Part shown: positions 1,407 to 63,700 of the stretch, one piece after another
Layout: each line of letters begins with the position of its first letter
Numbering within the stretch: the stretch's first letter is position 1
Virus record (IMG/VR): IMGVR_UViG_3300027747_001395
Length of the DNA: 64,000 nucleotides
From: a virus
Taxonomy: Duplodnaviria > Heunggongvirae > Uroviricota > Caudoviricetes
Strand: one strand, 5' to 3'
Position numbers and translations under genes: made by a program
The notes under the pieces: model-generated
What the model was told of the DNA's origin: nothing
The model's database searches: none
The model's input: only the letters and a program-made list of their open reading frames with translations

Positions 1407-2078
1407 ATGAAGCTTATTAGAGAAATTTTTGAAGACGTTCAATACGTCACAGAAGCAAAAGAAGATGGCGGAAAGAACTTCTATATTGAAGGTGTTTTTC
1501 TACAGTCTGCAATCAAAAACCGTAACGGCCGTATGTACCCAGAACATATTATGGACAAAGAAGTTGCCCGCTATATGAAAGAAGCCGTAGATACTAAAAC
1601 TGCTATGGGTGAACTTGGACACCCAAATGGTCCACAGATTAACCTTGATCGCGTTTCTCACCGTATTGTAAGTCTTCGTAAGGAAGGTACTGATTATGTC
1701 GGTAAAGCTATGATTACTAATACTCCAATGGGTAATATTGCCAAGGGTATTATGGAATCAGGTGCTAGACTTGGAGTCTCATCACGTGGTATGGGCTCAT
1801 TGAAGCTCAACAAAGAAGGTGTAAATGAAGTTCAGGGCGATTTTAGATTAGCTACTGCTGCTGATATTGTTGCAGATCCTTCTGCTCCAAATGCTTGGGT
1901 GAATGGTATTATGGAGAATTGCGATTGGGTTTACGACGAACGACTAGGTTGGAAAGCAGTTCAGATTCTTGAAAATACCAAGAAACAAATTGAGGCTGCA
2001 GTTACTTCCAAATCATTAAATGAGAATACTAAACTGAAAATGTTTGAATCATTTTTAAGAAAAATTTCAAAAATCTAA
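1407..2078 (+). CDS. gp21: Prohead protease gp21
   Basis: IEGVFLQ..KNRNGRMY, GELGHP, GVSSRGMGSL, ADIVADPSAP motifs; synteny. Confidence 0.97.
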   Translation: MKLIREIFEDVQYVTEAKEDGGKNFYIEGVFLQSAIKNRNGRMYPEHIMDKEVARYMKEAVDTKTAMGELGHPNGPQINLDRVSHRIVSLRKEGTDYVGKAMITNTPMGNIAKGIMESGARLGVSSRGMGSLKLNKEGVNEVQGDFRLATAADIVADPSAPNAWVNGIMENCDWVYDERLGWKAVQILENTKKQIEAAVTSKSLNENTKLKMFESFLRKISKI

Positions 2079-2121: not shown

Positions 2122-3162
2122 ATGGAAGAATATGAAAACATTGATGATAGTAATCTTGAAGAAGTTGCTGCTGCCGATACACTTAAGCCTGGCGGTGGTT
2201 CAGGTGGTACAGAATCTAAGGCAGAAATGCTAGCTACTTTTACATCACTTCTTGCACAGCTTGGAAAAGAAGATCTTTCAAGCATCTTTGATGCAGTTCA
2301 AGCTCAGTATGGTCCTAACAACGCTCCAGGTGTGGTTGATTATTCTGCAAAGAATGCTGCCTCACATGATATGAAGCCATCAGCAGCAATAGATAAGGGT
2401 GCATGGAAAGAAGACATTGACGATATGTTCGGTGATGATCTAACTGAAGAATTCCGTGAAAAGGCTGAAACAATTTTTGAAGCAGCTGTAAATACTCGTA
2501 TCAATCTTGAAGTTGCTCGTCTTGAAGAAGAGCTTGAAACTATCACAACCGATCTTGAAGAGCAATTTAATGAAGCACTTGAAGAAAAGTCTGCAGAAAT
2601 ATTTGAAGAACTATCAGATAAGCTTGATCAGTATCTTGATTATGTGATTGAACAGTGGATGGAAGAAAATCAGCTTGCAGTTGAAAATAGTATTCGTTCA
2701 GATATTGCGGAAGACTTTATTAAAGGTCTACAAAATCTATTTGCTGAACATTATATTACTGTTCCAGATGAAAAGATTGATCTTGTTGCAGAAATGAAGT
2801 CTGAACTTGAAGAACTTAAGACAAAGCTTAATGAAACAATTGATTCAAAGCTTGAACTTCAAACCGTTCTTAATGAAGCAGTAATTGAAGCAACACTTGA
2901 TGATGTTTCAACAGGTTTAGTAGAAACACAGATTGACAAATTCCGCACTCTAGCTGAAGGAATTGAGTTTACTGATGCTGACACTTTCAAAAGAAAGCTT
3001 GAAATCATCAAGGAAACATATTTTTCTGGTAAAAAACTTACCTCTTCATCAACAGGTTTAATCACAGAAGAAATTGATGGTACAGACGATTCATTAACTG
3101 AATCAGTACCTGTACATATGCAGAAATACATGCAGGCAATTTCCAAAACAATTTCAAAATAA
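2122..3162 (+). CDS. gp22: Prohead scaffold/core protein gp22
   Basis: Acidic coiled-coil with KAETIFEAAV, LDQYLDYVIEQWM and FIKGLQNLFAEHYI; between gp21 and gp23. Confidence 0.93.
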   Translation: MEEYENIDDSNLEEVAAADTLKPGGGSGGTESKAEMLATFTSLLAQLGKEDLSSIFDAVQAQYGPNNAPGVVDYSAKNAASHDMKPSAAIDKGAWKEDIDDMFGDDLTEEFREKAETIFEAAVNTRINLEVARLEEELETITTDLEEQFNEALEEKSAEIFEELSDKLDQYLDYVIEQWMEENQLAVENSIRSDIAEDFIKGLQNLFAEHYITVPDEKIDLVAEMKSELEELKTKLNETIDSKLELQTVLNEAVIEATLDDVSTGLVETQIDKFRTLAEGIEFTDADTFKRKLEIIKETYFSGKKLTSSSTGLITEEIDGTDDSLTESVPVHMQKYMQAISKTISK

Positions 3163-3221: not shown

Positions 3222-4595
3222 ATGTCATATTTAAATGAAGAAATTCAAAATAAGTGGAAGCCAATCCTCGAGCACGACGATCTTCCATCAATTAAAGATG
3301 CTCACAAGCGCGCAGTTACTGCACAGATTCTTGAGAATACTGAGAATGCAGTTCGTGAAGCACGTGCAGCAATGTCAGGTGGTTTCCTTGGTGAAGCTGG
3401 TCCAACCAACTCAATTGGTAACCCAGATTCAACAAACGCCGGTGCAATTGATACCTTTGATCCAGTACTTATCTCACTAGTTCGTCGTGCAATGCCTAAC
3501 CTTATTGCATATGATGTTTGCGGCGTCCAGCCAATGACAGGTCCAACAGGACTTATCTTTGCTATGCGTGCACGTTATGCTAACCAGACTGGTTCTGAAA
3601 CTTTCTACAACGAAGTTAATACCGGTCAGTCCGCTCGCGGTGGTGCAAACGGTCAGTATACAGATACTGCTGCTGCTTCTGCAACTGCCCTTGGTGGTGC
3701 AAATACAAACGTAGGTACTTACCCAGCTGCTTCAAACAATGCTGGTAACAGTGCATACAACTTTGCTGCTGGTCTTAACACTTCATTCGCTGAAGGTCTA
3801 GGCAACACCCCATCAGTATTCCCAGAAATGGCATTCTCAATCGAGAAAGTTACAGTTTCTGCTAAGACACGTGCTCTAAAGGCTGAATACTCACTTGAAC
3901 TTGCTCAGGATCTAAAGGCAATCCACGGTCTTGATGCTGAAACAGAACTAAGCAATATTCTTTCTGCGGAAATTCTTGCTGAAATCAACCGTGAAGTTAT
4001 TCGTTCAATCGTTATTACTGCTAAGCAAGGTGCAGAATCCGGTACAACAACTGCTGGTATCTTTGATCTTGACACTGACTCAAATGGTCGTTGGTCTGTT
4101 GAGAAGTTCAAGGGTCTTATGTTCCAAGTAGAGCGTGAAGCAAATGCTATCGCTAAGGGCACCAGACGTGGTAAGGGTAACGTAATCATCTGTTCATCAG
4201 ATGTTGCTTCTGCCCTTCAGATGGCTGGCGTTCTTGACTACGCTCCTGCTCTAAACAGCAACAACCTACAGGTTGATGACACAGGCAATACTTTTGCTGG
4301 TGTTCTTAACGGCCGTCTCCGCGTGTACATTGATCCATATGCTGGTTCAAACTACATGGTTGTCGGTTACAAGGGTTCAAGTGCATTTGATGCAGGTATT
4401 TTCTACTGCCCATACGTTCCACTTCAGATGGTTCGTGCGGTTGATCCTAATACCTTCCAGCCAAAAATCGGCTTCAAGACTCGTTACGGTATGGTAGCAA
4501 ACCCATTCGCTGAAGGTCTTACTGCTGGTCAAGGTACTCTTACACAAGATTCCAACAACTATTACCGCCGTATTATTATTTCAAATCTCATGTAA
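3222..4595 (+). CDS. gp23: Major capsid protein gp23
   Basis: DPVLISLVRRAMPNLIAYDVCGVQPMTGPTGLIFAMR, RALKAEYSLELAQDLKAIHGLDAE, FQPKIGFKTRYG. Confidence 0.99.
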   Translation: MSYLNEEIQNKWKPILEHDDLPSIKDAHKRAVTAQILENTENAVREARAAMSGGFLGEAGPTNSIGNPDSTNAGAIDTFDPVLISLVRRAMPNLIAYDVCGVQPMTGPTGLIFAMRARYANQTGSETFYNEVNTGQSARGGANGQYTDTAAASATALGGANTNVGTYPAASNNAGNSAYNFAAGLNTSFAEGLGNTPSVFPEMAFSIEKVTVSAKTRALKAEYSLELAQDLKAIHGLDAETELSNILSAEILAEINREVIRSIVITAKQGAESGTTTAGIFDLDTDSNGRWSVEKFKGLMFQVEREANAIAKGTRRGKGNVIICSSDVASALQMAGVLDYAPALNSNNLQVDDTGNTFAGVLNGRLRVYIDPYAGSNYMVVGYKGSSAFDAGIFYCPYVPLQMVRAVDPNTFQPKIGFKTRYGMVANPFAEGLTAGQGTLTQDSNNYYRRIIISNLM

Positions 4596-8319: not shown

Positions 8320-8633
8320 CTGAGTATTTAAGTATTAAGTTAGTATCGGGCGAGCAACTAATGGGTGAGCTTGAGGAACCAAATGATGAGTTTATTAATC
8401 TTATAAATCCAGTTGAAATTAGTCAAGGATATACAATAGAAGGTTACAGTCTTATTAAGTTAGCTCCTTTTATGACATGGACTGAAAATGAGTTGTTTAC
8501 ATTTAATAAAAAGTATATTATAGTGACAAGTGTCCCTAATGAAAAGCTTATTACTTACTATAAGCAATATATGGATTCTTTAAATGAGAGTGAATTAAAT
8601 GACAATAAATACGAATTTACCACCAGGCACTGA
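8316..8633 (+). CDS. Hypothetical protein (Sm-like N-terminus) between uvsW and gp55
   Basis: IKLVSGEQLMG..INLINPVEI; conserved syntenic position. Confidence 0.55.
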   Translation: MTEYLSIKLVSGEQLMGELEEPNDEFINLINPVEISQGYTIEGYSLIKLAPFMTWTENELFTFNKKYIIVTSVPNEKLITYYKQYMDSLNESELNDNKYEFTTRH

Positions 8634-9201
8634 ACCATACAAGAAACCCAAAGAACGAACTCACTATGTAGATAACAAAAAGTTATATACAGAAATGATT
8701 GTCTATTTAAATAAGTTAAATACGGCAAAGGAAACAGAAACTACTTTACCTAGAGTTTCAGAATACGTTGGTAAAACAATCTATCTAATTGCAACTAGAC
8801 TTGCAACAAAACCAAACTTTGCAGGCTATTCGTATAAAGATGAAATGATTTCAGATGGCATTGAAAATTGTCTGATGTATCTGCACAATTTTGATCCAGA
8901 TAAGTCTAAAAATCCATTTGCCTATTTCACTACAATCATTTACTATGCCTTTCTTCGGCGGATTGCCCGTGAACAAAAGCAACAGTACATTAAGCAGAAG
9001 AGCTTAATTAATTCGTCTATTCACAATACTCTTGTAGAAATGTCATCTGATGATGCAGCTCACTTTAATGCAGCATATGTCCACCTTGATGATGGTAGAT
9101 CTAACGATTTGATAGCCAAGTTTGAAAAACTTAAAGAATCTAAATCTACAAAAAAGAAGGGTATTGAAAAGTTTATTGGAGAGTTAGAAGATGAACTATG
9201 A
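8599..9201 (+). CDS. gp55: Late transcription sigma factor gp55
   Basis: HYVDNKK, PNFAGYSYKDEMISDGIENC, NFDPDKSKNPFAYFTTIIYYAFLRRI. Confidence 0.96.
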   Translation: MTINTNLPPGTEPYKKPKERTHYVDNKKLYTEMIVYLNKLNTAKETETTLPRVSEYVGKTIYLIATRLATKPNFAGYSYKDEMISDGIENCLMYLHNFDPDKSKNPFAYFTTIIYYAFLRRIAREQKQQYIKQKSLINSSIHNTLVEMSSDDAAHFNAAYVHLDDGRSNDLIAKFEKLKESKSTKKKGIEKFIGELEDEL

Positions 9202-21958: not shown

Positions 21959-22011
21959 TTGACATTTTTCTCATTCCGTGGTAGTTTAAACCATAAGGAA
22001 TGGAGATCAAC
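21959..22011 (+). promoter_or_regulatory. Early promoter/RBS cassette
   Basis: TTGACATTTTT...CCGTGGTAGTTTAAACCATAAGGAATGGAGAT. Confidence 0.85.
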
Positions 22012-55515: not shown

Positions 55516-55544
55516 TTGACATTTTTTCAAAAATAAATTAGAGT
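55516..55544 (+). promoter_or_regulatory. Early promoter
   Basis: TTGACA-17-TAGAGT. Confidence 0.75.
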
Positions 55545-55550
55545 TCTAAT

Positions 55551-56156
55551 ATGGTAAAACAAAGATTCAAAGAGTTTATAGGTTCTGGTACACTTACAAT
55601 CTTCGATATTGATGAGACCCTCTTCCATACAAAGGCTAAAGTCGGTGTGGTTAAGGACGGCAAAGTCATACGAAAATTAGATAACCAAGAATTTAACACA
55701 TACGAGCGTAAACCTGGGGAAACCTATGACTTCGGCGAATTTCGATCCGCCGAAGTTTTTCGTAGAACTTCGGTCCCAGTAGTTCGGATGATTGAAAAGG
55801 CTAAGGCAGTTGTCAAAGCTAAAAACAATCCACACAGCCGTGCTATTATCTGTACTGCCCGTGCTGACTTTGATGACAAGCATATGTTTCTTCAGACGTT
55901 CCGTGATCATGGAATTCCAATTGATGATATGCACGTCGAGCGTGCTGGTAATCTTGGTCTTGATTCAAGTGCTGAAGCCAAGAAGGTTATATTTCGTCGT
56001 TATATAAATACTAAAAATTATACTAAACTCCGTCTATATGATGATGCAATGAGTAATCTAACTGCATTTCTGGATCTTGAAGATGAATATCCACATGTCA
56101 AGTTTGAAGCTTATTTTGTGAAGCCAGACGGCTCTACCAAGGTTATTAAACGATGA
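55551..56156 (+). CDS. HAD-superfamily phosphatase (polynucleotide 3'-phosphatase-like)
   Basis: FDIDETL, CTAR, YDDA; N-terminus QRFKEFI. Confidence 0.8.
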   Translation: MVKQRFKEFIGSGTLTIFDIDETLFHTKAKVGVVKDGKVIRKLDNQEFNTYERKPGETYDFGEFRSAEVFRRTSVPVVRMIEKAKAVVKAKNNPHSRAIICTARADFDDKHMFLQTFRDHGIPIDDMHVERAGNLGLDSSAEAKKVIFRRYINTKNYTKLRLYDDAMSNLTAFLDLEDEYPHVKFEAYFVKPDGSTKVIKR

Positions 56157-56308
56157 AAACATTTGCTGAATTTAAAGAAGAACTGTCCATTAGAGATGCT
56201 TCTGGTAAGCCTACAAAAGTAAAGAATGTGCCTATCAGAATGGCTGATGGAACAATTAAAAATCTACCACCTGGTAAGTCTGGCTCATCTGGCGGAGGTG
56301 GTGACTGA
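56153..56308 (+). CDS. 51-aa internal-protein-like ORF with capsid-targeting N-terminus
   Basis: MKTFAEFKEE; manually read; ATGA coupling. Confidence 0.7.
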   Translation: MKTFAEFKEELSIRDASGKPTKVKNVPIRMADGTIKNLPPGKSGSSGGGGD

Positions 56309-57267
56309 TGCAACGCTTTAAATCTTTCATTACTGAGGCTTCAATTCGCCAAGGCCTTCCTCATCTCTACTCCACCAAAACAGCTGCTGGTAATGACACA
56401 CCTTCACTTTCTACCGACCAGTTCCATCATCTCACAAAAGGTGGTAAAGTTTTAATCCACCATATAACTGAAAAGACCGATGGTCAGACTTTTAAGATGG
56501 GTCATGACGAACACGGCTTTTATACTCAGCACTCTGGATCTGGTGACGAAAAGATTCGTACAGCTCAAGGTCATATTGATCGAGCCAAGCGCCGGGCACA
56601 AGAAACTGGTAAGCCATATGACCCTACCGCACCTGAAGCATTTGCTAAATTCCATGATGCTCTTCATAAGAATAAAGCATTACAAGCTCATTTAGCATCA
56701 GAATATAAGCGCACAGGTAACGAAGTTGTAGTGAAGGGTGAAGCATTTAATAATGCTCTTGCTCGCCCATCTGACACAAAGAAGGGTGAAGTCAAGTTTG
56801 TTCATACTTCATACAAGAAGCCAAGAGGTTTAGGTACATTTGTCATTCATTCAAGACTACCTGAAAATCAAGGGCATGATACGGAGCACTTCAAGAAACA
56901 TCTATCAGATTCTAATATTAACTTTGAAGATGATAAGATTGCTCACAAGCCAGGTCATGTTGATGTTGCAGATGAAGTAAAAGAGTTTCATGGACTCAAT
57001 CACGAGCTTATTAATTCACGAACCACACCAAAAAATAAAGCAGCAAAGACCGCAGAGCTTGACAAGTTTAATGCAGTCAAGAAAAAAGTTAGTGATAAAG
57101 TAACCAGACACCTCGGATCACTTGGTATTAAGAATAAATTTGGTTCTGGAACCGAAGGTCTTGTTGTTCATCCATCTGCTGCAAATCCAGAAGCACCTCG
57201 CTTCAAAGCCATCAATCCTGCTTTCAAGGAAGCAAAAGCCAAAAGTTCAAGATTCGGAGCCAAGTAA
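56308..57267 (+). CDS. Ligase-like covalent nucleotidyltransferase with capsid-targeting N-terminus
   Basis: MQRFKSFITE; TEKTDG (KxDG), KGEAF, EGLVV, FKAIN. Confidence 0.7.
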   Translation: MQRFKSFITEASIRQGLPHLYSTKTAAGNDTPSLSTDQFHHLTKGGKVLIHHITEKTDGQTFKMGHDEHGFYTQHSGSGDEKIRTAQGHIDRAKRRAQETGKPYDPTAPEAFAKFHDALHKNKALQAHLASEYKRTGNEVVVKGEAFNNALARPSDTKKGEVKFVHTSYKKPRGLGTFVIHSRLPENQGHDTEHFKKHLSDSNINFEDDKIAHKPGHVDVADEVKEFHGLNHELINSRTTPKNKAAKTAELDKFNAVKKKVSDKVTRHLGSLGIKNKFGSGTEGLVVHPSAANPEAPRFKAINPAFKEAKAKSSRFGAK

Positions 57268-59093
57268 TGCAGAGATTTAAAGCGTTTATTCTAGAGGGTG
57301 GCAACATCCGTGTCGGACCAAAAGGTCAGGAAACATCTGCTGCGGCATTTCCGGTAACTGCAGGTACTCGCCATCAGGTCCGCCATGACATTCACCATGC
57401 TTTAACAGCAATTGGTGACACATTTCATAAGGAACACGGCGAGCATCTATTCGGTCAGGATCATCAGCGCCTTCATGATGCTACTGCATATACCGGCTCT
57501 ACTCACGATCTCATGGGTCACCACGTATCACATGCTGAATTTGCAAAGCATAAACCAATGGTTGGTGACGTTGACACTCAGGTGACACCAGAACATAAAG
57601 AAAAACTAGCTACTCATCTTACACCAGGCAGAAAGTTTGGTAAGTATACAGTTGTCGGAACCAAGAAGCATGGTAATGAAATCTCTGCAGTTATGCGTCA
57701 TGAGAATGGTGAACATCATCAGTTTGATTTCCAAGGTGTAAATCACCCAGGTTCGGAAGCTTCGAGATTCTTACATGGATCAAACTGGGAAGACACAAAG
57801 GCAGGAATTAAAGGTGCTCACCACAAAATCCTTCTAAATGCGGTTGCCGGTGATACTCATAAGTTCTCAATTACACACGGTCTTCGCTCACGTACTGATG
57901 AATCTGATCCTGGTGTACAACACCCACATGAAGTTACCAAGAAGCTATTTGGTGCTAATGCCGATCATAATAATATCCATTCATTCCATGGTGTAACTCA
58001 ACTGATCAAGAAGCACATCCCTAAAGAACAGCACCAGGCAATCTACGATAAGTTTAAGGGTGCCGTATCTAAAATGAAGGGTATGGATCATGGTCCTGCT
58101 CTTGCTCATATGCGTAAGCATCTCGGTGTGGTTGATACGGTTAATGAAGCTAGAGAAGCACAAGATCCTGGTGAGAATCATGAAACGACCATAGGTCGCA
58201 AACTTGCAGCACATCGACTTATTAATAGCTTAACTGATAAGAATGAGAAAGATGTAATAAAGCATAGATATATTCATGGTCGTACATTAGAACAGACTGC
58301 TAATGTTTTAGGTCTAAGAAATAGAGAACATGCTAGACAAATTGAAGCCAAAGCTTTACGTAGTATGAGAAATAGATCAGATCTATACGATAAAGATGGT
58401 GCACGTGATTATGTAAAAGAAGCTATGAAAGATGATCCCTGCTGGACAGGTTATAAAATGATCGGCAAAAAGAAAAAGAACGGCAAGGAAGTTCCTAACT
58501 GCGTTCCTGTTCACGAGGAAGAAACACATCACGTCCACGTCTCATATCTAGGCGCTTCACCATTCCCACACATGGGACACCATACTGATATTGGCGGTTC
58601 AATGGAAGCAGCACCACACGGCAAGAAGTTTATCGGTCTATCTGGTAAGTCTGATGCATTCTCAGATAAGGAACGTGAAGATATTGCCAACAAGCAGTCA
58701 GGTGGTAAGGTTGATTTCCAAACAGTAAAGTCACCAGGTGTTACAATTGCCAAGGCTCATGCGAGTATGCCTGCTACTGGTAGAAAGGTTCTTCATCTTC
58801 ACTTTGGGCATGACCGTCAGAAGTTTGCGGAAGGTCTTAAGCACTCAGTAGAGAATGGCAAGATTCCAGAGCTTCAAGGTCACAAGTTTGACGAAGTTCA
58901 TGTTCATCTACCAAAAGATGAAAATCGTTCACATGGTCTATCAGGTACAAAGATGCGAACTGCTGCGGAATCCGGCGACCTAAATACATTTAAGAAACAT
59001 GTCGGTCCTAACTTCTCCGATAAGGAAGTTAAAGGTCTTATGGATCGAACACGTGTAGGTTTAATGGCAGGCAAGATCAAGGTAAAAAGATGA
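57267..59093 (+). CDS. Multidomain cargo protein: Pol-beta-like NTase, sigma70 region 4, Cys module, HIGH-type cytidylyltransferase-like domain
   Basis: MQRFKAFILE; GS...GDVD; LTD.NE.DVI..RY...TLEQ.A..LG..RE..RQIEAKALR; DPCW..NCVP; PHMGH, GHDR, SGTKMR. Confidence 0.75.
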   Translation: MQRFKAFILEGGNIRVGPKGQETSAAAFPVTAGTRHQVRHDIHHALTAIGDTFHKEHGEHLFGQDHQRLHDATAYTGSTHDLMGHHVSHAEFAKHKPMVGDVDTQVTPEHKEKLATHLTPGRKFGKYTVVGTKKHGNEISAVMRHENGEHHQFDFQGVNHPGSEASRFLHGSNWEDTKAGIKGAHHKILLNAVAGDTHKFSITHGLRSRTDESDPGVQHPHEVTKKLFGANADHNNIHSFHGVTQLIKKHIPKEQHQAIYDKFKGAVSKMKGMDHGPALAHMRKHLGVVDTVNEAREAQDPGENHETTIGRKLAAHRLINSLTDKNEKDVIKHRYIHGRTLEQTANVLGLRNREHARQIEAKALRSMRNRSDLYDKDGARDYVKEAMKDDPCWTGYKMIGKKKKNGKEVPNCVPVHEEETHHVHVSYLGASPFPHMGHHTDIGGSMEAAPHGKKFIGLSGKSDAFSDKEREDIANKQSGGKVDFQTVKSPGVTIAKAHASMPATGRKVLHLHFGHDRQKFAEGLKHSVENGKIPELQGHKFDEVHVHLPKDENRSHGLSGTKMRTAAESGDLNTFKKHVGPNFSDKEVKGLMDRTRVGLMAGKIKVKR

Positions 59094-59347
59094 AAACATT
59101 CTGTCAGTGGATTAAGGAAAGTTTACCAACAAATAGTACTGGTGGTGGAATCAGAGGTCTAGGTAATGTCACTGGAGTACCTGGTGGCACTATTTCTAGT
59201 TATGCCGCATTTAATGCATCTGATACTAGTGTTAGCGACGCTGTGAATGCTATGCATGCTACCACTAATAATACTGGTGATGTTAAAGATAGTAATACTG
59301 CTGACACAAAAAATAATATCTTGAAAGTAGGTAAAGGTAAGAAATAA
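59090..59347 (+). CDS. Small internal-protein-like ORF with capsid-targeting N-terminus
   Basis: MKTFCQWIKE then SLPTNSTGGGIRGLG. Confidence 0.65.
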   Translation: MKTFCQWIKESLPTNSTGGGIRGLGNVTGVPGGTISSYAAFNASDTSVSDAVNAMHATTNNTGDVKDSNTADTKNNILKVGKGKK

Positions 59348-60255
59348 TGGCACAATGGAGAATTGACCAACAGAAGAAAGTTGAACAGAACAGTAAGACA
59401 CTATATGAATTGGGGATGATTGCTACAGTAAATGGTGATCCAGTTACTAATGTGAATCCGTTCCCAGTAACACTTGGTTCCAATAATATTACAATCACTG
59501 GAAATGTTAATGTTGGAACAACTGTACAGGTGTCTAGTACTCCTGAAAATCCAATACACAGCCATATTACTGAAGTTGGTAATAGTGGTATTCTAACAGT
59601 TTCGTATATGCCTATTAGTGGTAATGTAGTAATTACATCAGGCAATCTAAATGCAAATGTTACTGGTATTGTTAACGTAGGCAACTTCCCTGCATCACAG
59701 AATGTTGTTGTAACTTCTGGTAATATAAATATTACTAGTACTGTTACTGTTATTACAACACAAGAAGCGGGTGATTTATATTCCTTTAATAATCATGCAA
59801 TAAATACGAATCGTGGTTGGACTATGGACGATACTATGCGTCCTGTTGTTAGTTTTAGAAATAATAGTGCAAGTGTTGCGGATTTAATAAAAATTATTGA
59901 ATATGAAATTGGAAACAACAACGCTAATCAAAGCACTATTGTGTATGAGTGGTATGAAGGTGATCTAACAATAACTGGAGCAGCTATACCTGCTTGGACT
60001 ACGTTTGGTGTTCACAGTCAATATCGTGTATATCAAGACAAATATTCTTCTAATCAAGGAAACACGTTTACTCCAAATGGTTCAATAATGAGACACAGTG
60101 GTATCATTATTGGTAAGAATACATCTGGTGATGAAGGCCCAAAATCAATGCATGGCGGTGGAACTCCAAATATGCTTACTTTGTGTATGAGACGTGTTGA
60201 TAACTCAACCAAACTAGACGTATGGTTTGCATTTACTATTAAGGAACTAGCATAA
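59347..60255 (+). CDS. Putative virion structural protein (beta-rich)
   Basis: Repeated GNVNV/SGNV motifs; TPENPIHSHITEVG. Confidence 0.6.
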   Translation: MAQWRIDQQKKVEQNSKTLYELGMIATVNGDPVTNVNPFPVTLGSNNITITGNVNVGTTVQVSSTPENPIHSHITEVGNSGILTVSYMPISGNVVITSGNLNANVTGIVNVGNFPASQNVVVTSGNINITSTVTVITTQEAGDLYSFNNHAINTNRGWTMDDTMRPVVSFRNNSASVADLIKIIEYEIGNNNANQSTIVYEWYEGDLTITGAAIPAWTTFGVHSQYRVYQDKYSSNQGNTFTPNGSIMRHSGIIIGKNTSGDEGPKSMHGGGTPNMLTLCMRRVDNSTKLDVWFAFTIKELA

Positions 60256-60256
60256 A

Positions 60257-60550
60257 ATGAAAACATTAAAAGCTTTTATATTAGAATGTATCTTATTAGA
60301 ACGAGGTGAGGATTCAAAAGGATATAAAAGATCCACAGAAGATGGGGCTGGGTTAACTAGAAAAGGCGCTAAAGCTGCAGGTGTTAAAACAGCTGTTACA
60401 ACACCACCAAGTAAACTAGACCCAAATGGTAAAGCAGCAAAAAGACGTAAGTCATTCTGCGCTCGTATGAGTGGTGTGCCTGGTCCAATGAAAGATGAAA
60501 AAGGTCGTCCAACTCGTAAGGCTGCATCACTAAAGCGTTGGAACTGTTAA
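60257..60550 (+). CDS. Basic internal-protein-like ORF (DUF6321-like) with capsid-targeting N-terminus
   Basis: MKTLKAFILE; GAGLT.KG, RRKSFCARM, RWNC. Confidence 0.7.
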   Translation: MKTLKAFILECILLERGEDSKGYKRSTEDGAGLTRKGAKAAGVKTAVTTPPSKLDPNGKAAKRRKSFCARMSGVPGPMKDEKGRPTRKAASLKRWNC

Positions 60551-60562
60551 AAATCTTATTTG

Positions 60563-60570
60563 TATAAATA
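60563..60570 (+). promoter_or_regulatory. Late promoter
   Basis: Intergenic TATAAATA. Confidence 0.85.
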
Positions 60571-60575
60571 TATTG

Positions 60576-60770
60576 TTAAGGCTAAGGCAAACACGTTTTT
60601 AATAACAGATAAGCCCAAGGGAAACTCTGATGGAAAGAATAATACAAGTACCAACCCGCAACACACTCATTTCTTCTCCCAAACTAGACTATGTTGTCGG
60701 AGAAATAGGTTGTCTTAGCCTTAATCAAACAAAGTTACAAGTCTCTTGATCGTTTGATCTTGGGGCTGTT
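60576..60770 (+). ncRNA. Putative structured RNA or 5' leader with pseudoknot
   Basis: 15-bp P1 (60576-60590/60710-60724), 7-bp hairpin (60724-60730/60752-60758), crossing helix (60612-60619/60759-60767). Confidence 0.6.
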
Positions 60771-60788
60771 TTAGTATTAGAGGAAGTT

Positions 60789-63700
60789 ATGGACAAAATA
60801 AACGAAATTACTGAAGGTGATTACAAATTAAAAAAGACCGGACTAGAAAAAACTATTGCTCACCCAGAAGGTAAAGCAACTTATGAAGTTCATCATAATG
60901 GACAAATTATTGGTAAAATAAAGCCATATAGTTCATATCTTGATAAGAAAAAACCTGGTTCTAGAATAGTATCAAGTCGAAAAAATATTACTAGTTATTC
61001 GTTCGATTTCAATGGTAATCATGGCCCAAGGTCTCATGAAATGGGTACTTTTGTTTATATGGGTCACTCTAATCCTAAAGTGGCACTTCAACGAATGTCT
61101 AAAGAACATCAGACATTTAAAGCAAAACAAAAGAATGAAGAAGTAAACCTAGATGAAAATATTTTAAACATTCAGCAACGTCAAAAGCGTGCTATTGAAA
61201 TGCGTAGAAATGAACCAAGAATTGAAATTGCCAGAGAACGAGCTAAGAAAAAAGTGGCGCCTGAAGCAAATATCAAGAAGCGTTCATATGCAATGGCAAG
61301 ACAACTTGTTCGTAGCAGACTTACTAATGTTTCACAAGCTGAATATGCTAAGATGGGCCCATCTGAAAAGATGGCAATTGACCGAGTTATCGAAAAGAAA
61401 GGACCTGCTATCAAGAAATTAGCAATGCGTCTAATTCCAAAAGTCAAGAAGGCTGAATATGCCCGACTTCAATCTTATATGCATGGACAGCAAATGGCTA
61501 ACCATGGAGCACCGGAAGGAAATCACGTGTCAGAATCTTTAAATAACCTGTTCCTAGAATACTTTGGTGATTCCGCACCAGGTAATAGTGGATCCACAGG
61601 TGAGCGTTCAGATAGTCCAATTAATTCTAGCGGTCGCAAGATTGCTAAATCAAATACTAAAGGTGATTCTCAGGGTAACGCCAAAGGTGGCACAAAGACT
61701 AAAGGATCTCCCATTGTCCAATATGGCAAGTTCGGTGAAGATCTAGAAGTTGATAGTCCTGTTTTTAAAGCTCTTATTAAAAAGGCTGATGCTACTAATC
61801 TTGATCTAGAGATTCTTGGTGAAGTCTATAATCGTGGGCTTGAAGCTTGGAACGAGGATTGCTCAGTATCACAACAGCAGTACGCATTTGCTCGTGTAAA
61901 CTCATATATCAATCAGGGTAGAACATACTTTAATGAAGATGCTGATTTGCACGAACTTTCAAAGTCAACACTTAAATCGTACCTAGCTAAAACTAAAGAA
62001 GGTGGAAAACAATATCCAACACCACTATCATTTAGAAAATCAATGGAGTCTCAGGGTATTGCTAAAGGTAAACTTGGACTAAAATATAAAAGACGTCCAG
62101 TACCTGATGTGAAAATTAAGGCTACAAATGAAGAAGTAGAGCTTCAAGAAGATGAAGCTCCAGCTAAGGTAGGTGACAAAGTTTATCTCAAAACAAAAGT
62201 ACACGCTAATTCCCCACATACTGGTAAAGTAAAAAAAGTTACACCTACTCATGTTCATTTAGATACTGGTCATGGAATTTATAAAGCACCTCATTCTGCT
62301 ATTACTAAAGATTATAAGCAATCTCATCTTCATGTTAACTACGGTAGTAAGAATGAAGAAGTAGAAGTAACTGAAGGTAAATTTACTGCTCATGTAAGCA
62401 AGAATGGTCGTAGTCATGGAACAGTTAAGCTTTCTGCTATTGATCGAGAAAATGCTGAATATCAGATGAAGAAGCATCCTTATTACAAGCACTTTACAGT
62501 TGATAAAGTTGTAAAAGAAGAAAATCTTGAAGAAAAAAGAGGTCTGTGGGATAACATTCATGCTAAGCAAAAAAGAATCAAAGCTGGTTCGGGTGAACGT
62601 ATGCGTAAACCAGGTTCGGAAGGAGCACCATCTAATTCTGATTTAAAAGCTGCTCAGGAATCAGTAGACTTTGAAGAATCAAAGAATACGCCATATGTAA
62701 AAGCATATTTTGAAAAAGGTCAGACAAAGCAAAATTCATGGAAAGCTATGAACAAGCATGGTCATGTCAAGCACTTTGGTCTTCCTTTTAAGAAAGCAGC
62801 TGAATTACATGCTGGTCTTTCTGAGGGAGTACAATCAGATTTTTTAGATGAAATGGCCGGAGCGAATATGGATCGCCGTGCTCTGGTCTCACACATTACA
62901 AATAAAGGATGGCAGAAGAAGGCAAGTGGTGGAAGCGGCGACCATGATGTATTCACACATCCAAAGTCTACACACCGTCTAGCAGTTCCTAGGCATAACA
63001 AGCTTAAGGCACCTTTAATTCTTGATGTGCTCAAGAAGTCCAAAATTATGGACAAGACCAATGAGGAAATAGAATCAGTAGATGAACATATAGTCAAGGT
63101 CAAGAGCGGTTACCGTCTAGTTTCTAAATCATCTGGTAAGAATCTAGGTACTTATCCTACTAAGGAGGGTGCTGAGAAACGTGAAAAGCAAGTTCAATAC
63201 TTCAAGCACCAGAACGAAGAAGTAGAACTTGATGAGGTTCTGTTAAGTTCATTTAAAAAGACTGAAAAGTTTGGCGGTAAAGATCTAGGTAAACATATCT
63301 CTACTATTGAAGGTACTAAGCATATTGGCACACTAGAAAATGGACATCATGTTTATCATAGTTATGATCCAAAAGATAAAATGCATGACTATCATGTAGT
63401 AGACCCAAAGACCAAGCGAATCAACATTCACCTTACAACCAAGCAGCAGGCGGCTCCTGGTGCTGAAGAAGTTAGTGTTCTAACTGCTAATGACAAATCA
63501 CTTGGTGCACATCATCTCTACCAGCACCTTGTGACAAAGCACAACAAGATTATCTCATCTAATGACCAGTCACCAGGTGCTAGAAGTGTATGGGCAAAAG
63601 TTGGAAAGCATAAAGGCATTCATATTCATGGATATGATCCTATCAGCAAGACAACATTTCACATGAAGCCATCTGATGATGAAGAATACATAGATAGAGA

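What the first reader, a model, noticed from the sequence alone, without database searches (positions are those of the whole stretch)
58149..58421. Sigma70 region-4 domain inserted as a cleavable module in a packaged protein
Seen: INSLTDKNEKDVIKHRYIHGRTLEQTANVLGLRNREHARQIEAKALRSMR (58221-58370), flanked by DTVNE and YVKE. Established: this matches the region 4.1-4.2 pattern (L..L..RE..V...R....TLEE.G..LG..RERVRQIE.KAL.KLR), which binds the -35 element and the RNAP beta-flap. T4 AsiA/MotA act on the same surface. Inference: an injected sigma4 mimic could displace host sigma, titrate anti-sigma or defence sensors, or recognise the extended TTGACATTTTT -35 element shared by about 19 phage early promoters.
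Basis: partly seen in the sequence, partly recalled or inferred. Interest (0 to 1): 0.85.

Follow-up and report, generated by a model that had tools for sequence, protein, structure and literature searches.

The report
Sigma-factor domain cassette in phage cargo
An uncultured T4-like phage carries a genuine promoter-reading end of a bacterial sigma factor as a swappable 91-residue insert in a protein that looks built to be loaded into the phage head, cut up and injected; if so, the phage delivers a piece of the host's transcription machinery on entry, but no cutting, packaging or binding has been measured.

Summary
Residues 325-368 of the 608-aa ORF 57267-59093 score above Pfam's cut-off for Sigma70_r4 (E 6e-10). 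They align best to region 4 of primary sigma factors, and the model matches only sigma region 4 structures.

A 93%-identical relative lacks precisely these 273 nt. Of 120 homologs, 98 join the two carrier domains (Pol-X-like and PPAT-like nucleotidyltransferases) by a linker of 8 residues or fewer. The other 22 carry other cassettes at that joint.

Five related sigma-4 cassettes sit in other carriers. All are bounded by hydrophobic-x-Glu and are under purifying selection.

Packaging and cutting are inferred, not shown. The N-terminus matches the T4 capsid-targeting sequence at positions 4, 7, 8 and 10. The phage has a gp21-type protease. The joints are the low-confidence linkers of the model.

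The link to the extended TTGACATTTTT promoters is not supported. Close relatives without the cassette have the same promoters, and the five related cassettes lack the -35-reading Arg-Glu.

The most likely role is an accessory injected sigma-4 mimic acting at the RNA polymerase flap/-35 interface.

The scan has noted similar sigma-4 cargo on other DNA (e1-5362573), and the neighbouring polyprotein on this window.

The parts
57267..59093 (+). Carrier gene, 608 aa: targeting-like N-terminus, Pol-X-like domain, sigma-4 cassette, small Cys module, PPAT-like domain
   Evidence: ORF. 287 homologs at E <= 0.001. The identical protein is on three independent assemblies. The full-length model has mean pLDDT 89, with low-confidence stretches only at residues 1-11, 293-306 and 373-378.
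57267..57296 (+). Residues 1-10, MQRFKAFILE: capsid-targeting-sequence-like propeptide ending in I-L-E
   Evidence: The T4 CTS is MKTYQEFIAE (PMC8442874). Targeting depends on residues 4 and 7 and processing on residues 8 and 10 (PMC9026906). Here these are F4, F7, I8 and E10. A hydrophobic-x-E motif ends at this column in 103 of 103 aligned homologs. Forms fused to the upstream gene keep I-M-E before GGNIK.
57297..58148 (+). N domain, residues 11-294: Pol-beta/Pol-X-like nucleotidyltransferase fold, ends in DTVNE
   Evidence: pLDDT above 93. Foldseek matches ASFV Pol X and Pol lambda at E 5e-3 to 1e-2, prob 0.95-1.0. G77, D101 and D103 are invariant. There is no [LIVMF]-x-E site inside the domain.
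58149..58421 (+). Sigma-4 cassette, residues 295-385 (10.6 kDa, pI 9.6): tail of the region 3.2 linker plus regions 4.1-4.2 plus a C-terminal helix, ends in YVKE
   Evidence: Exact indel against the P0003 gene. It is flanked by GTTAATGAAGCTA and GTAAAAGAAGCTA. GC is 35.5% against 44% for the rest of the gene.
58239..58370 (+). Pfam Sigma70_r4 match, residues 325-368, with the helix-turn-helix
   Evidence: The equivalents of E. coli sigma70 R584, E585, R588 and Q589 are R, E, R and Q; R586 is H (alignment; roles from PMC2613000).
58422..58517 (+). Small Cys module, residues 386-417 (the PCW...NCV hairpin), a second cassette, ends in VHE
   Evidence: It follows DTVNE directly in P0003 and P0005. 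Modelled as a beta hairpin at 396-414. Matches phrog_9737.
58518..59090 (+). C domain, residues 418-608: HxGH nucleotidyltransferase fold (PPAT/NaMNAT-like)
   Evidence: phrog_3041 cytidyltransferase. Foldseek matches PPAT at E 1e-3, TM 0.6. H435, G437 and H438 are invariant.
1407..2078 (+). gp21-type prohead protease, the presumed cutter
   Evidence: phrog_207 head maturation protease, E 4e-74. The phage's gp23 has F-L-G-E|A in its N-terminal region, which I take (from my memory of T4 gp23) to match the T4 cleavage position. L-x-E is enriched in gp22: 11 against 4.7 expected, P 0.001.
56003..56010 (+). TATAAATA, a T4-type late promoter motif upstream of the tightly packed genes at 56153, 56308, 57267 and 59090
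   Evidence: 16 in the window against 6.5 expected.
55516..55544 (+). Early-type promoter TTGACATTTTT-N12-TAGAGT ahead of the first gene of the cluster (55551)
   Evidence: The same motif sits at the orthologous place in L084, which lacks the cassette.
56308..57267 (+). Upstream gene (319 aa, MQRFKSFITE...), fused to the carrier in about 15 relatives
   Evidence: In the 790-895-aa homologs the N domain starts near residue 300-330 and the joint keeps a hydrophobic-x-E motif.

Best explanation
A real sigma70-family region 4 domain has been captured as a 91-residue cassette. It includes the last part of the 3.2 linker and most resembles primary sigma factors. It is inserted exactly at the exposed joint between the two nucleotidyltransferase-like domains of a conserved late protein of an uncultured T4-like phage.

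Shown: the domain identity, the cassette boundaries, the swapping of other cassettes at the same joint in close relatives, the occurrence of related sigma-4 cassettes in other carriers, and purifying selection on them.

Inferred, odds about 0.6: the carrier enters the prohead through its T4-like N-terminal targeting sequence. The gp21-type protease then cuts after the hydrophobic-x-Glu joints. That would store a free basic 10.6-kDa sigma-4 domain with the DNA, to be injected with it.

Inferred, odds about 0.35: the freed domain behaves as a sigma-4 mimic at the host RNA polymerase. It would occupy the beta-flap tip and/or TTGACA -35 elements and so shift transcription in the first moments of infection. 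The phage's own early promoters also carry a TGn extended -10, which makes them less dependent on sigma-4 contacts. The cassette is an optional, arms-race-type cargo, not part of the phage's core programme.
For: Domain identity.

Exact insertion unit: P0003 (93% identical N domain) has DTVNE followed directly by AMKDDPCW. DNA homology runs 1-886 and resumes at 1131. Cassette GC is 35.5% against 44%.

Hotspot: 98 of 120 homologs have a linker of 8 residues or fewer, and 22 carry inserts of 31-353 residues made of at least ten kinds of unit. Three near-identical carriers hold three different units before the same Cys module. These end in V-K-E, I-H-E and L-K-E, each followed by Ala.

Related cassettes: five more, in P0010, P0036, P0122, P0161 and P0131, all above the Pfam cut-off. 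They have four different upstream and four different downstream neighbours, and are always bounded by [LIV]-x-E and V-K-E or I-F-E-E.

Selection: dN/dS is 0.09-0.30 for the unsaturated close pairs.

Packaging logic: the CTS-like N-terminus matches T4 at positions 4, 7, 8 and 10, and the motif is present in 103 of 103 homologs. A gp21 homolog is in the window. A late-promoter motif lies upstream. All pieces are basic, pI 8.9-9.6. The model's only low-confidence stretches are residues 1-11, 293-306 and 373-378.

Target: the R584/E585/R588/Q589 equivalents are kept in this copy.

Complex with the E. coli beta flap 831-1057: weak support, score 0.49 against best control 0.03. That mark was reached by 58 of 80 solved complexes and 2 of 110 mismatched pairs. 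At 0.60 or under it was reached by only 7 of those 80, and by both mismatches that passed. The runs agree in at least 61% of contacts and the partner's pLDDT is at least 66. Sigma-4/flap complexes are solved, so this may be memory of the family, and E. coli is a stand-in host.

Precedent for free sigma-4: stand-alone sigma-4-only proteins of 71-93 aa exist (Atlas leads).

Early promoters: they combine TTGACA with TGn before the -10.
Against: There are no virion, cleavage or binding data.

The sites flanking this cassette have Val at P3. The T4 rule is L/I-x-E, and V-x-E is not enriched in this phage's gp22, whereas L-x-E is.

Residue 385 lies in a modelled helix of middling confidence, not in a clear coil.

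An invariant I-P-E inside the C domain shows that conservation of the motif alone does not prove cutting.

Overall the gene is not depleted of such motifs: 5 against 6.9 expected.

A few hundred injected copies of a lone sigma-4 would compete poorly with sigma-4 tethered in the holoenzyme (my own reasoning).

The phage's own early promoters use a perfect -35, so a competitor could harm the phage.

The -35-reading residues are not conserved in the five related cassettes.

The cassette is rare. This form was found on three contigs only, and a 92%-complete relative has no Sigma70_r4 at all.
Confidence: 0.5

Rival explanations
1. The cassette works in cis. The chain is not cut at these Val-x-Glu joints (or is not packaged), and the sigma-4 helix-turn-helix tethers the two nucleotidyltransferase-like domains to promoter DNA or to RNA polymerase.
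For: Val at P3 departs from the T4 rule, and V-x-E is not enriched in gp22. Residue 385 is modelled in a helix. The carrier domains are conserved enzymes with invariant G..DxD and HxGH motifs.
Against: Related cassettes sit in quite different carriers and neighbourhoods. This fits a self-contained bead better than a tether tuned to one enzyme. Most carriers (98 of 120) do without any insert. The joint motif is conserved in 92 of 103 homologs.
Confidence: 0.2
2. A late cytoplasmic regulator rather than injected cargo. Made from the late promoter, the sigma-4 domain (cut or uncut) competes with host sigma for the flap or for TTGACA elements and helps to switch off early, -35-dependent transcription in favour of gp55-driven late transcription.
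For: A late-promoter motif lies upstream. The phage has a gp55-type late sigma without region 4. This copy keeps the -35-reading residues, and the early promoters share a perfect TTGACA.
Against: The N-terminal targeting-like sequence is invariant in the family. Close relatives manage the early-to-late switch without the cassette. The related cassettes lack the Arg-Glu pair.
Confidence: 0.12
3. One reading: the module evolved to read the extended TTGACATTTTT element of this phage's early promoters.
For: There are 19 such promoters on the + strand. This copy has canonical -35-reading residues plus an extra C-terminal helix.
Against: L084 (490-aa form) and L091/G004 (522-aa form) lack the cassette but carry the same motif. 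G004 has 3 in a 29-kb fragment, and L084 has it at the orthologous promoter. The T tract lies in the spacer, outside the known sigma-4 footprint (own knowledge).
Confidence: 0.08
4. A near-neutral passenger. Linker-to-linker recombination shuffles fragments, and this one has no function of its own.
For: It is rare. There is microhomology at both joints, and many unrelated inserts occupy the same site.
Against: Purifying selection: dN/dS is 0.09-0.30. The fold and the Pfam signal are kept across cassettes only 34-50% identical. The N-terminal ET..KL segment is conserved.
Confidence: 0.08

Closest known systems
[quoted passage not shown]
   Same: A ten-residue N-terminal tag with an aromatic residue at 4 and 7, Ile at 8 and Glu at 10. 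A gp21-type protease in the same phage. Basic products. Hypervariable content between close relatives, as described for T-even internal proteins (PMC3012670, PMC9026906).
   Different: T4 internal proteins are single proteins cut once. Here several units are strung on internal joints, and units are swapped at a joint inside a conserved two-domain enzyme. No T4 cargo is a sigma domain. Packaging is shown for T4 and only inferred here.
Region 4 of primary (group 1) sigma factors, e.g. S. aureus SigA domain 4 (4g6d) and T. aquaticus sigmaA region 4 on -35 DNA (1ku7)
   Same: 41-43% identity to S. aureus SigA domain 4 over about 61 aligned residues, the same four-helix fold, and the R584/E585/R588/Q589 equivalents kept. 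The alignment reaches into the 3.2/4.1 linker.
   Different: There are no regions 1-3, so it cannot act as a sigma factor. The 4.1-4.2 loop is four residues shorter and the helix-turn-helix turn one residue longer. There is an extra C-terminal helix.
Phage factors acting on the sigma-4/beta-flap interface: T4 AsiA and gp33, P23-45 gp39, Xp10 P7
   Same: The same proposed target surface and the same expected outcome: loss of -35-dependent initiation with extended -10 promoters spared (PMC7403470).
   Different: There is no sequence or fold relation to any of them. Those proteins are made after infection. This one would be a copy of the host's own domain and would be delivered ready-made.
Polyvalent proteins of phages and conjugative elements (Iyer et al. 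2017, PMC5512222)
   Same: Several effector-type domains in one polypeptide, predicted to be packaged and delivered with the DNA and then processed.
   Different: That survey does not list a sigma domain (the word 'sigma' does not occur). It stresses built-in metallopeptidase domains. Here the cuts would be made by the prohead protease at short linker motifs.
Stand-alone sigma-4-only proteins of phages and bacteria (71-93 aa; P0128, P0133, P0140, P0143 and others)
   Same: The same domain as a free small protein, which is what the released cassette would be (Atlas leads).
   Different: Those are separate genes with no targeting tag. Their function is also unknown to me.

Membership tests
Sigma-70 region 4 domain (Pfam PF04545) | Profile score above the curated cut-off | tested here: met
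   38.9 bits against 24.1, E 6.1e-10. The related cassettes score 38-53 bits.
Sigma-70 region 4 domain (Pfam PF04545) | Four-helix fold with a C-terminal helix-turn-helix | tested here: met
   Model helices at 16-31, 36-47, 52-59 and 64-99 of the 101-residue query, core pLDDT 94-98. All 50 best PDB matches are sigma factors or region 4 domains, TM up to 0.87 by target.
Sigma-70 region 4 domain (Pfam PF04545) | Residues that read the -35 element (E. coli R584, E585, R588; PMC2613000) | tested here: met
   R, E and R (and Q589 as Q) by alignment to the TRERIRQIEAKALRKLR segment of SigA. E. coli numbering is from my own knowledge. These residues are not kept in the five related cassettes.
Sigma-70 region 4 domain (Pfam PF04545) | Binds the beta-flap tip of core RNA polymerase | tested here: inconclusive
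   Weak support, score 0.49 against best control 0.03. The mark was reached by 58 of 80 solved complexes and 2 of 110 mismatches. At 0.60 or under it was reached by only 7 of the 80 and by both mismatches that passed. The runs agree in at least 61% of contacts and the partner's pLDDT is at least 66. The result may be memory of solved sigma-4/flap complexes, and the flap is an E. coli stand-in.
Complete sigma-70-family sigma factor | Region 2 (core binding, -10 recognition) | tested here: not met
   No Sigma70_r2 or r3 match in the 608-aa protein. The upstream 284 residues fold like Pol X.
T4-type capsid-targeted internal protein | N-terminal targeting sequence of about 10 residues ending in L/I-x-E | tested here: met
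   MQRFKAFILE against T4 MKTYQEFIAE. Positions 4, 7, 8 and 10 match the residues shown to matter. The motif is present in 103 of 103 homologs.
T4-type capsid-targeted internal protein | The phage encodes a gp21-type prohead protease and a gp22 scaffold | tested here: met
   phrog_207 at E 4e-74 and phrog_237 at E 3e-74.
T4-type capsid-targeted internal protein | Late expression | tested here: inconclusive
   TATAAATA at 56003, upstream of tightly packed genes. No transcript data.
T4-type capsid-targeted internal protein | Physically present in the virion and cut by the protease | not testable with these tools
   The phage is uncultured, and cultured phages hold only distant N-domain homologs.
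Polyvalent proteins (PMC5512222) | Two or more effector-type domains in one packaged polypeptide | tested here: inconclusive
   Four modules in one chain. Packaging is inferred only. No built-in peptidase domain was found.

The most novel reading that the evidence does not exclude
T4-like phages of fresh water keep a combinatorial library of small effector cassettes. Each cassette is framed by prohead-protease sites and shuffled by recombination at the linker codons. One of them is a copy of the host sigma factor's domain 4. The phage injects it ready-made to take over the beta-flap/-35 interface of host RNA polymerase before any phage gene is expressed. This would be a new class of injected transcription effector, acting by mimicry of a sigma domain.
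Probability: 0.25. Interest if true: 0.8.

Novelty: new variant of a known kind. Interest (0 to 1): 0.62.

Why it matters
T4 internal proteins are the textbook case of proteins injected with phage DNA. The known ones block restriction (IPI*) or modify RNA polymerase (Alt).

A sigma domain as cargo would add mimicry of a host transcription domain to that list. It would act before any phage gene is read.

The architecture may matter more than this one cassette. Conserved enzymes carry interchangeable units at one protease-type joint, and each unit brings its own joint. That is a simple genetic way to swap injected effectors. It gives a ready rule for finding unit boundaries, and so for cloning and testing each unit alone.

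Tried and rejected
A megablast of 56000-61000 against 50,697 GenBank phages found nothing.

A tblastn of the cassette against the same phages gave only one weak hit, to a Streptococcus satellite.

A scan of IMG/VR with the six-cassette alignment returned ordinary phage sigma genes, not this cassette family.

A word-indexed search restricted to residues 295-385 found only P0122 and P0161.

No whole genome is held for the window. I therefore searched for AsiA in three related IMG/VR records. Nothing matched, but the control rang nowhere either, so this says nothing.

I did not look for MotA or gp33, because I had no reliable family accession for them.

Overall depletion of [LIVM]-x-E in the gene is not significant: 5 against 6.9 expected. 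I therefore dropped site avoidance as an argument, apart from noting that the 284-residue N domain has none.

I considered reading the cassette as a LuxR/GerE or KorA-type helix-turn-helix. Those families score below their cut-offs, and only in relatives.

I considered an assembly chimera and rejected it, because the identical gene is on an independent assembly.
Full report
**What is there**

The window comes from an uncultured T4-like phage. It encodes:
- a gp21-type prohead protease (1407-2078);
- a gp22 scaffold (2122-3162);
- a gp23 major head protein (3222-4595);
- a gp55-type late sigma (8599-9201);
- gp46/47, gp43, UvsX and gp41.

It has no near match among 50,697 GenBank phages.

The finding lies in ORF 57267-59093 (+, 608 aa). 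Pfam places Sigma70_r4 at residues 325-368, with E 6.1e-10 and 38.9 bits against a cut-off of 24.1. PHROGs gives a sigma-factor family for residues 305-372.

A sequence search of the PDB returns only region 4 of primary sigma factors. The best are S. aureus and B. subtilis SigA, followed by cyanobacterial SigA and E. coli RpoD. The alignment continues upstream into the acidic linker between regions 3.2 and 4.1.

A model built on 40 sequences has four helices, with pLDDT 94-98 over the core. All 50 best Foldseek matches in the PDB are sigma factors or isolated region 4 domains, with TM up to 0.87 by target and rmsd 1.1-2.4 A over about 60 residues. The E-values are weak because the domain is small.

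The protein has 287 homologs at E <= 0.001. In the 120 best, two blocks are conserved: an N domain (residues 11-294) and a C domain (residues 419-608).

- In 98 of the 120, the two blocks are joined by 8 residues or fewer, after a conserved ...DTVNE.
- In 22, the joint holds inserts of 31 to 353 residues.

The closest relative, P0003, is 93% identical in the N domain. It reads DTVNE and then at once AMKDDPCW..., which in the window follows YVKE.

At the DNA level, homology runs through base 886 of the gene and resumes at base 1131. That leaves out 58149-58421. The two joints share GTTAATGAAGCTA and GTAAAAGAAGCTA.

The cassette has 35.5% G+C, against 44% for the rest of the gene.

Two other carriers that are about 90% identical hold different units at the same place. 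The three units end in V-K-E, I-H-E and L-K-E, each before the same Ala-Met start of the small Cys module.

The exact 608-aa protein occurs on three assemblies. One independent contig is identical over the whole gene, so this is not a chimera.

**The cassette is a family of its own**

An exhaustive search of 1.8 billion representatives with residues 290-390 gave only 39 hits at E <= 0.001. The best is a 975-aa mosaic protein.

With the word-indexed searches, I found five more sigma-4 cassettes:
- two in the same carrier family (P0010, P0036);
- three in long mosaic proteins that begin with a cytidylyltransferase-like domain (P0122, P0161, P0131).

All five pass the Pfam cut-off. Their neighbours differ on both sides. 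Every one starts after L-Q-E, L-N-E, I-N-E or V-S-E and ends in V-K-E or I-F-E-E.

Between close pairs, dN/dS is 0.09, 0.15 and 0.30, so the cassette is kept by selection.

The six copies share:
- the scaffold positions of the fold;
- the equivalents of Q589 and K593;
- a conserved ET...KL stretch ahead of the first helix.

Only the window's copy keeps the Arg-Glu pair that reads positions -31 and -33 of the -35 element (residue roles from PMC2613000).

**The carrier**

A full-length model (mean pLDDT 89) shows four folded pieces. Its only low-confidence stretches are residues 1-11, 293-306 and 373-378, that is, the N-terminal tag and the two sides of the cassette.

Foldseek links the C domain to phosphopantetheine and nicotinate-nucleotide adenylyltransferases. 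It links the N domain to Pol X and Pol lambda. E-values are weak but probabilities high. The invariant G..DxD and HxGH motifs fit this.

This agrees with another first-stage note on this window, which reads the gene cluster as a set of nucleotide or RNA-handling enzymes.

In about 15 relatives the upstream 319-aa gene is fused to this one. The internal joint keeps I-M-E before GGNIK.

**Is it packaged and cut?**

This is inference.

In T4, the first ten residues of the internal proteins (MKTYQEFIAE) are sufficient for loading into the prohead. Residues 4 and 7 matter for targeting, and residues 8 and 10 for cutting by gp21, which cuts after L/I-x-E (PMC9026906; PMC8442874). T-even internal proteins are described as a diverse set that share only this tag (PMC3012670).

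For packaging and cutting:
- The window's protein starts MQRFKAFILE, which matches T4 at all four positions.
- A hydrophobic-x-E motif ends at this column in all 103 aligned homologs.
- Neighbouring genes start MQRFKSFITE, MKTFCQWIKE and MKTLKAFILE.
- The phage's gp23 has F-L-G-E|A in its N-terminal region. I take this, from my memory of T4 gp23, to match the T4 cleavage position.
- L-x-E is enriched in its scaffold protein (11 against 4.7 expected, P 0.001).
- A TATAAATA late-promoter motif lies upstream.
- All pieces are basic.

Against:
- The two sites around this cassette have Val at P3, and V-x-E is not enriched in gp22.
- Residue 385 sits in a modelled helix.
- An invariant I-P-E inside the C domain shows that motif conservation alone proves nothing.
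- The gene as a whole is not depleted of such motifs.

I put the odds of packaging plus release at about 0.6.

**What would it do?**

A lone region 4 cannot act as a sigma factor, because there is no region 2.

The known partners of this domain are the beta-flap tip, the -35 element, and the proteins that target it. Phage factors that disturb the sigma-4/flap contact (AsiA, gp39, P7) silence -10/-35 promoters and spare extended -10 promoters (PMC7403470).

The phage's 19 early promoters combine a perfect TTGACA with TGn before the -10 in many cases. They would therefore tolerate loss of the sigma-4 contact better than ordinary host promoters.

A predicted complex with the E. coli beta flap (831-1057) gave weak support only:
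- The score was 0.49 against a best control of 0.03.
- That mark was reached by 58 of 80 solved complexes and 2 of 110 mismatched pairs.
- At 0.60 or under it was reached by only 7 of the 80, and by both mismatches that passed.
- The runs agree in at least 61% of contacts, and the partner's pLDDT is at least 66.

Sigma-4/flap complexes are solved and E. coli is a stand-in, so this shows likeness at most.

Stand-alone sigma-4-only proteins of 71-93 aa exist as separate genes (Atlas leads). A free domain of this kind is therefore not odd in itself.

I rate a role at the polymerase flap/-35 interface at about 0.35. The main rivals are a cis tether in an uncut enzyme, a late cytoplasmic regulator, and a passenger.

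**What the evidence speaks against**

The idea that the module exists to read the extended TTGACATTTTT element is not supported.

- L084 carries the 490-aa form without the cassette. It has the same promoter at the orthologous place.
- L091/G004 carries a 522-aa form without the cassette. It has three such motifs in a 29-kb fragment.
- More distant relatives have at most one copy of the motif and no sigma-4. One 92%-complete record has no Sigma70_r4 at all.

The cassette is therefore optional.

**Comparison and novelty**

The closest known system is the T4 set of capsid-targeted internal proteins and Alt. The broader class is the polyvalent proteins of Iyer et al., whose survey does not mention a sigma domain.

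Three things are new here:
- the cargo, a sigma domain;
- cassettes at an internal joint of a conserved enzyme;
- the recurrence of the same cassette in different carriers.

I file it as a new variant of a known kind.

The scan has already described the neighbouring polyprotein and its HicA unit on this window. It has also noted sigma-like cargo in other genomes (e1-5362573 and others). Those are unchecked notes, not independent evidence.

Noticed in passing
Proteins P0126, P0132, P0135, P0138, P0142, P0144, P0146, P0147 and P0154: Many of the nearest non-cassette relatives combine a sigma region 4 domain with a C-terminal helix-hairpin-helix stretch (LDLSVRSYNCLRRAGI...RNLGRKSL..EI) that looks like the C-terminal domain of the RNA polymerase alpha subunit. 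Several also have an N-terminal Xre-type helix-turn-helix. I do not know a described family of sigma-4/alpha-CTD fusions.
   Followed up: no
window 21959-22010, 22158, 28349, 29105, 31011, 36819, 45820, 46347: A subset of the early promoters forms near-identical promoter-leader units: TTGACATTTTT, then ..CCGTGGTAGACT, then AAACYATAAGGAATGGAGAT before the start codon. The whole unit is repeated, not just the -35 element.
   Followed up: partly
window 56308-57267 and 57267-59093: The upstream 319-aa gene (which another note reads as ligase-like) is fused to the carrier in about 15 relatives of 790-895 aa, with a hydrophobic-x-E joint kept at the fusion point. Gene boundaries and protease-type joints therefore seem interchangeable in this cluster.
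   Followed up: partly
window 57297-58148 and 58518-59090: The carrier's two domains resemble a Pol-X-type and a PPAT/NaMNAT-type nucleotidyltransferase, both with invariant catalytic-looking motifs. If packaged, these would be enzymes delivered with the DNA. Distant N-domain homologs occur in the Campylobacter CP220-group, Vibrio Va1-like and Xanthomonas BUDD phages, all annotated as hypothetical.
   Followed up: partly
window 58422-58517: The 32-residue PCW...VPNCV hairpin module is itself a mobile unit. It stands alone at the joint in P0003, P0005 and P0013. It lies next to the sigma-4 cassette in 3 of 6 cases, on either side.
   Followed up: no
window 58866-58874 (residues 533-535 of the carrier): I-P-E is invariant in 103 of 103 homologs inside the folded C domain. 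This warns that a conserved hydrophobic-x-Glu motif is not always a cut site.
   Followed up: no
Inserts of P0004, P0009/P0017, P0018/P0021/P0024, P0019/P0023, P0033, P0036-P0043 and P0044: At least ten other kinds of cassette occupy the same joint. Most have no Pfam match. Several also occur in the long polyproteins, for example the GLWDNIHAKRKRIK unit and the NF(I/L)DGKGPG unit.
   Followed up: no
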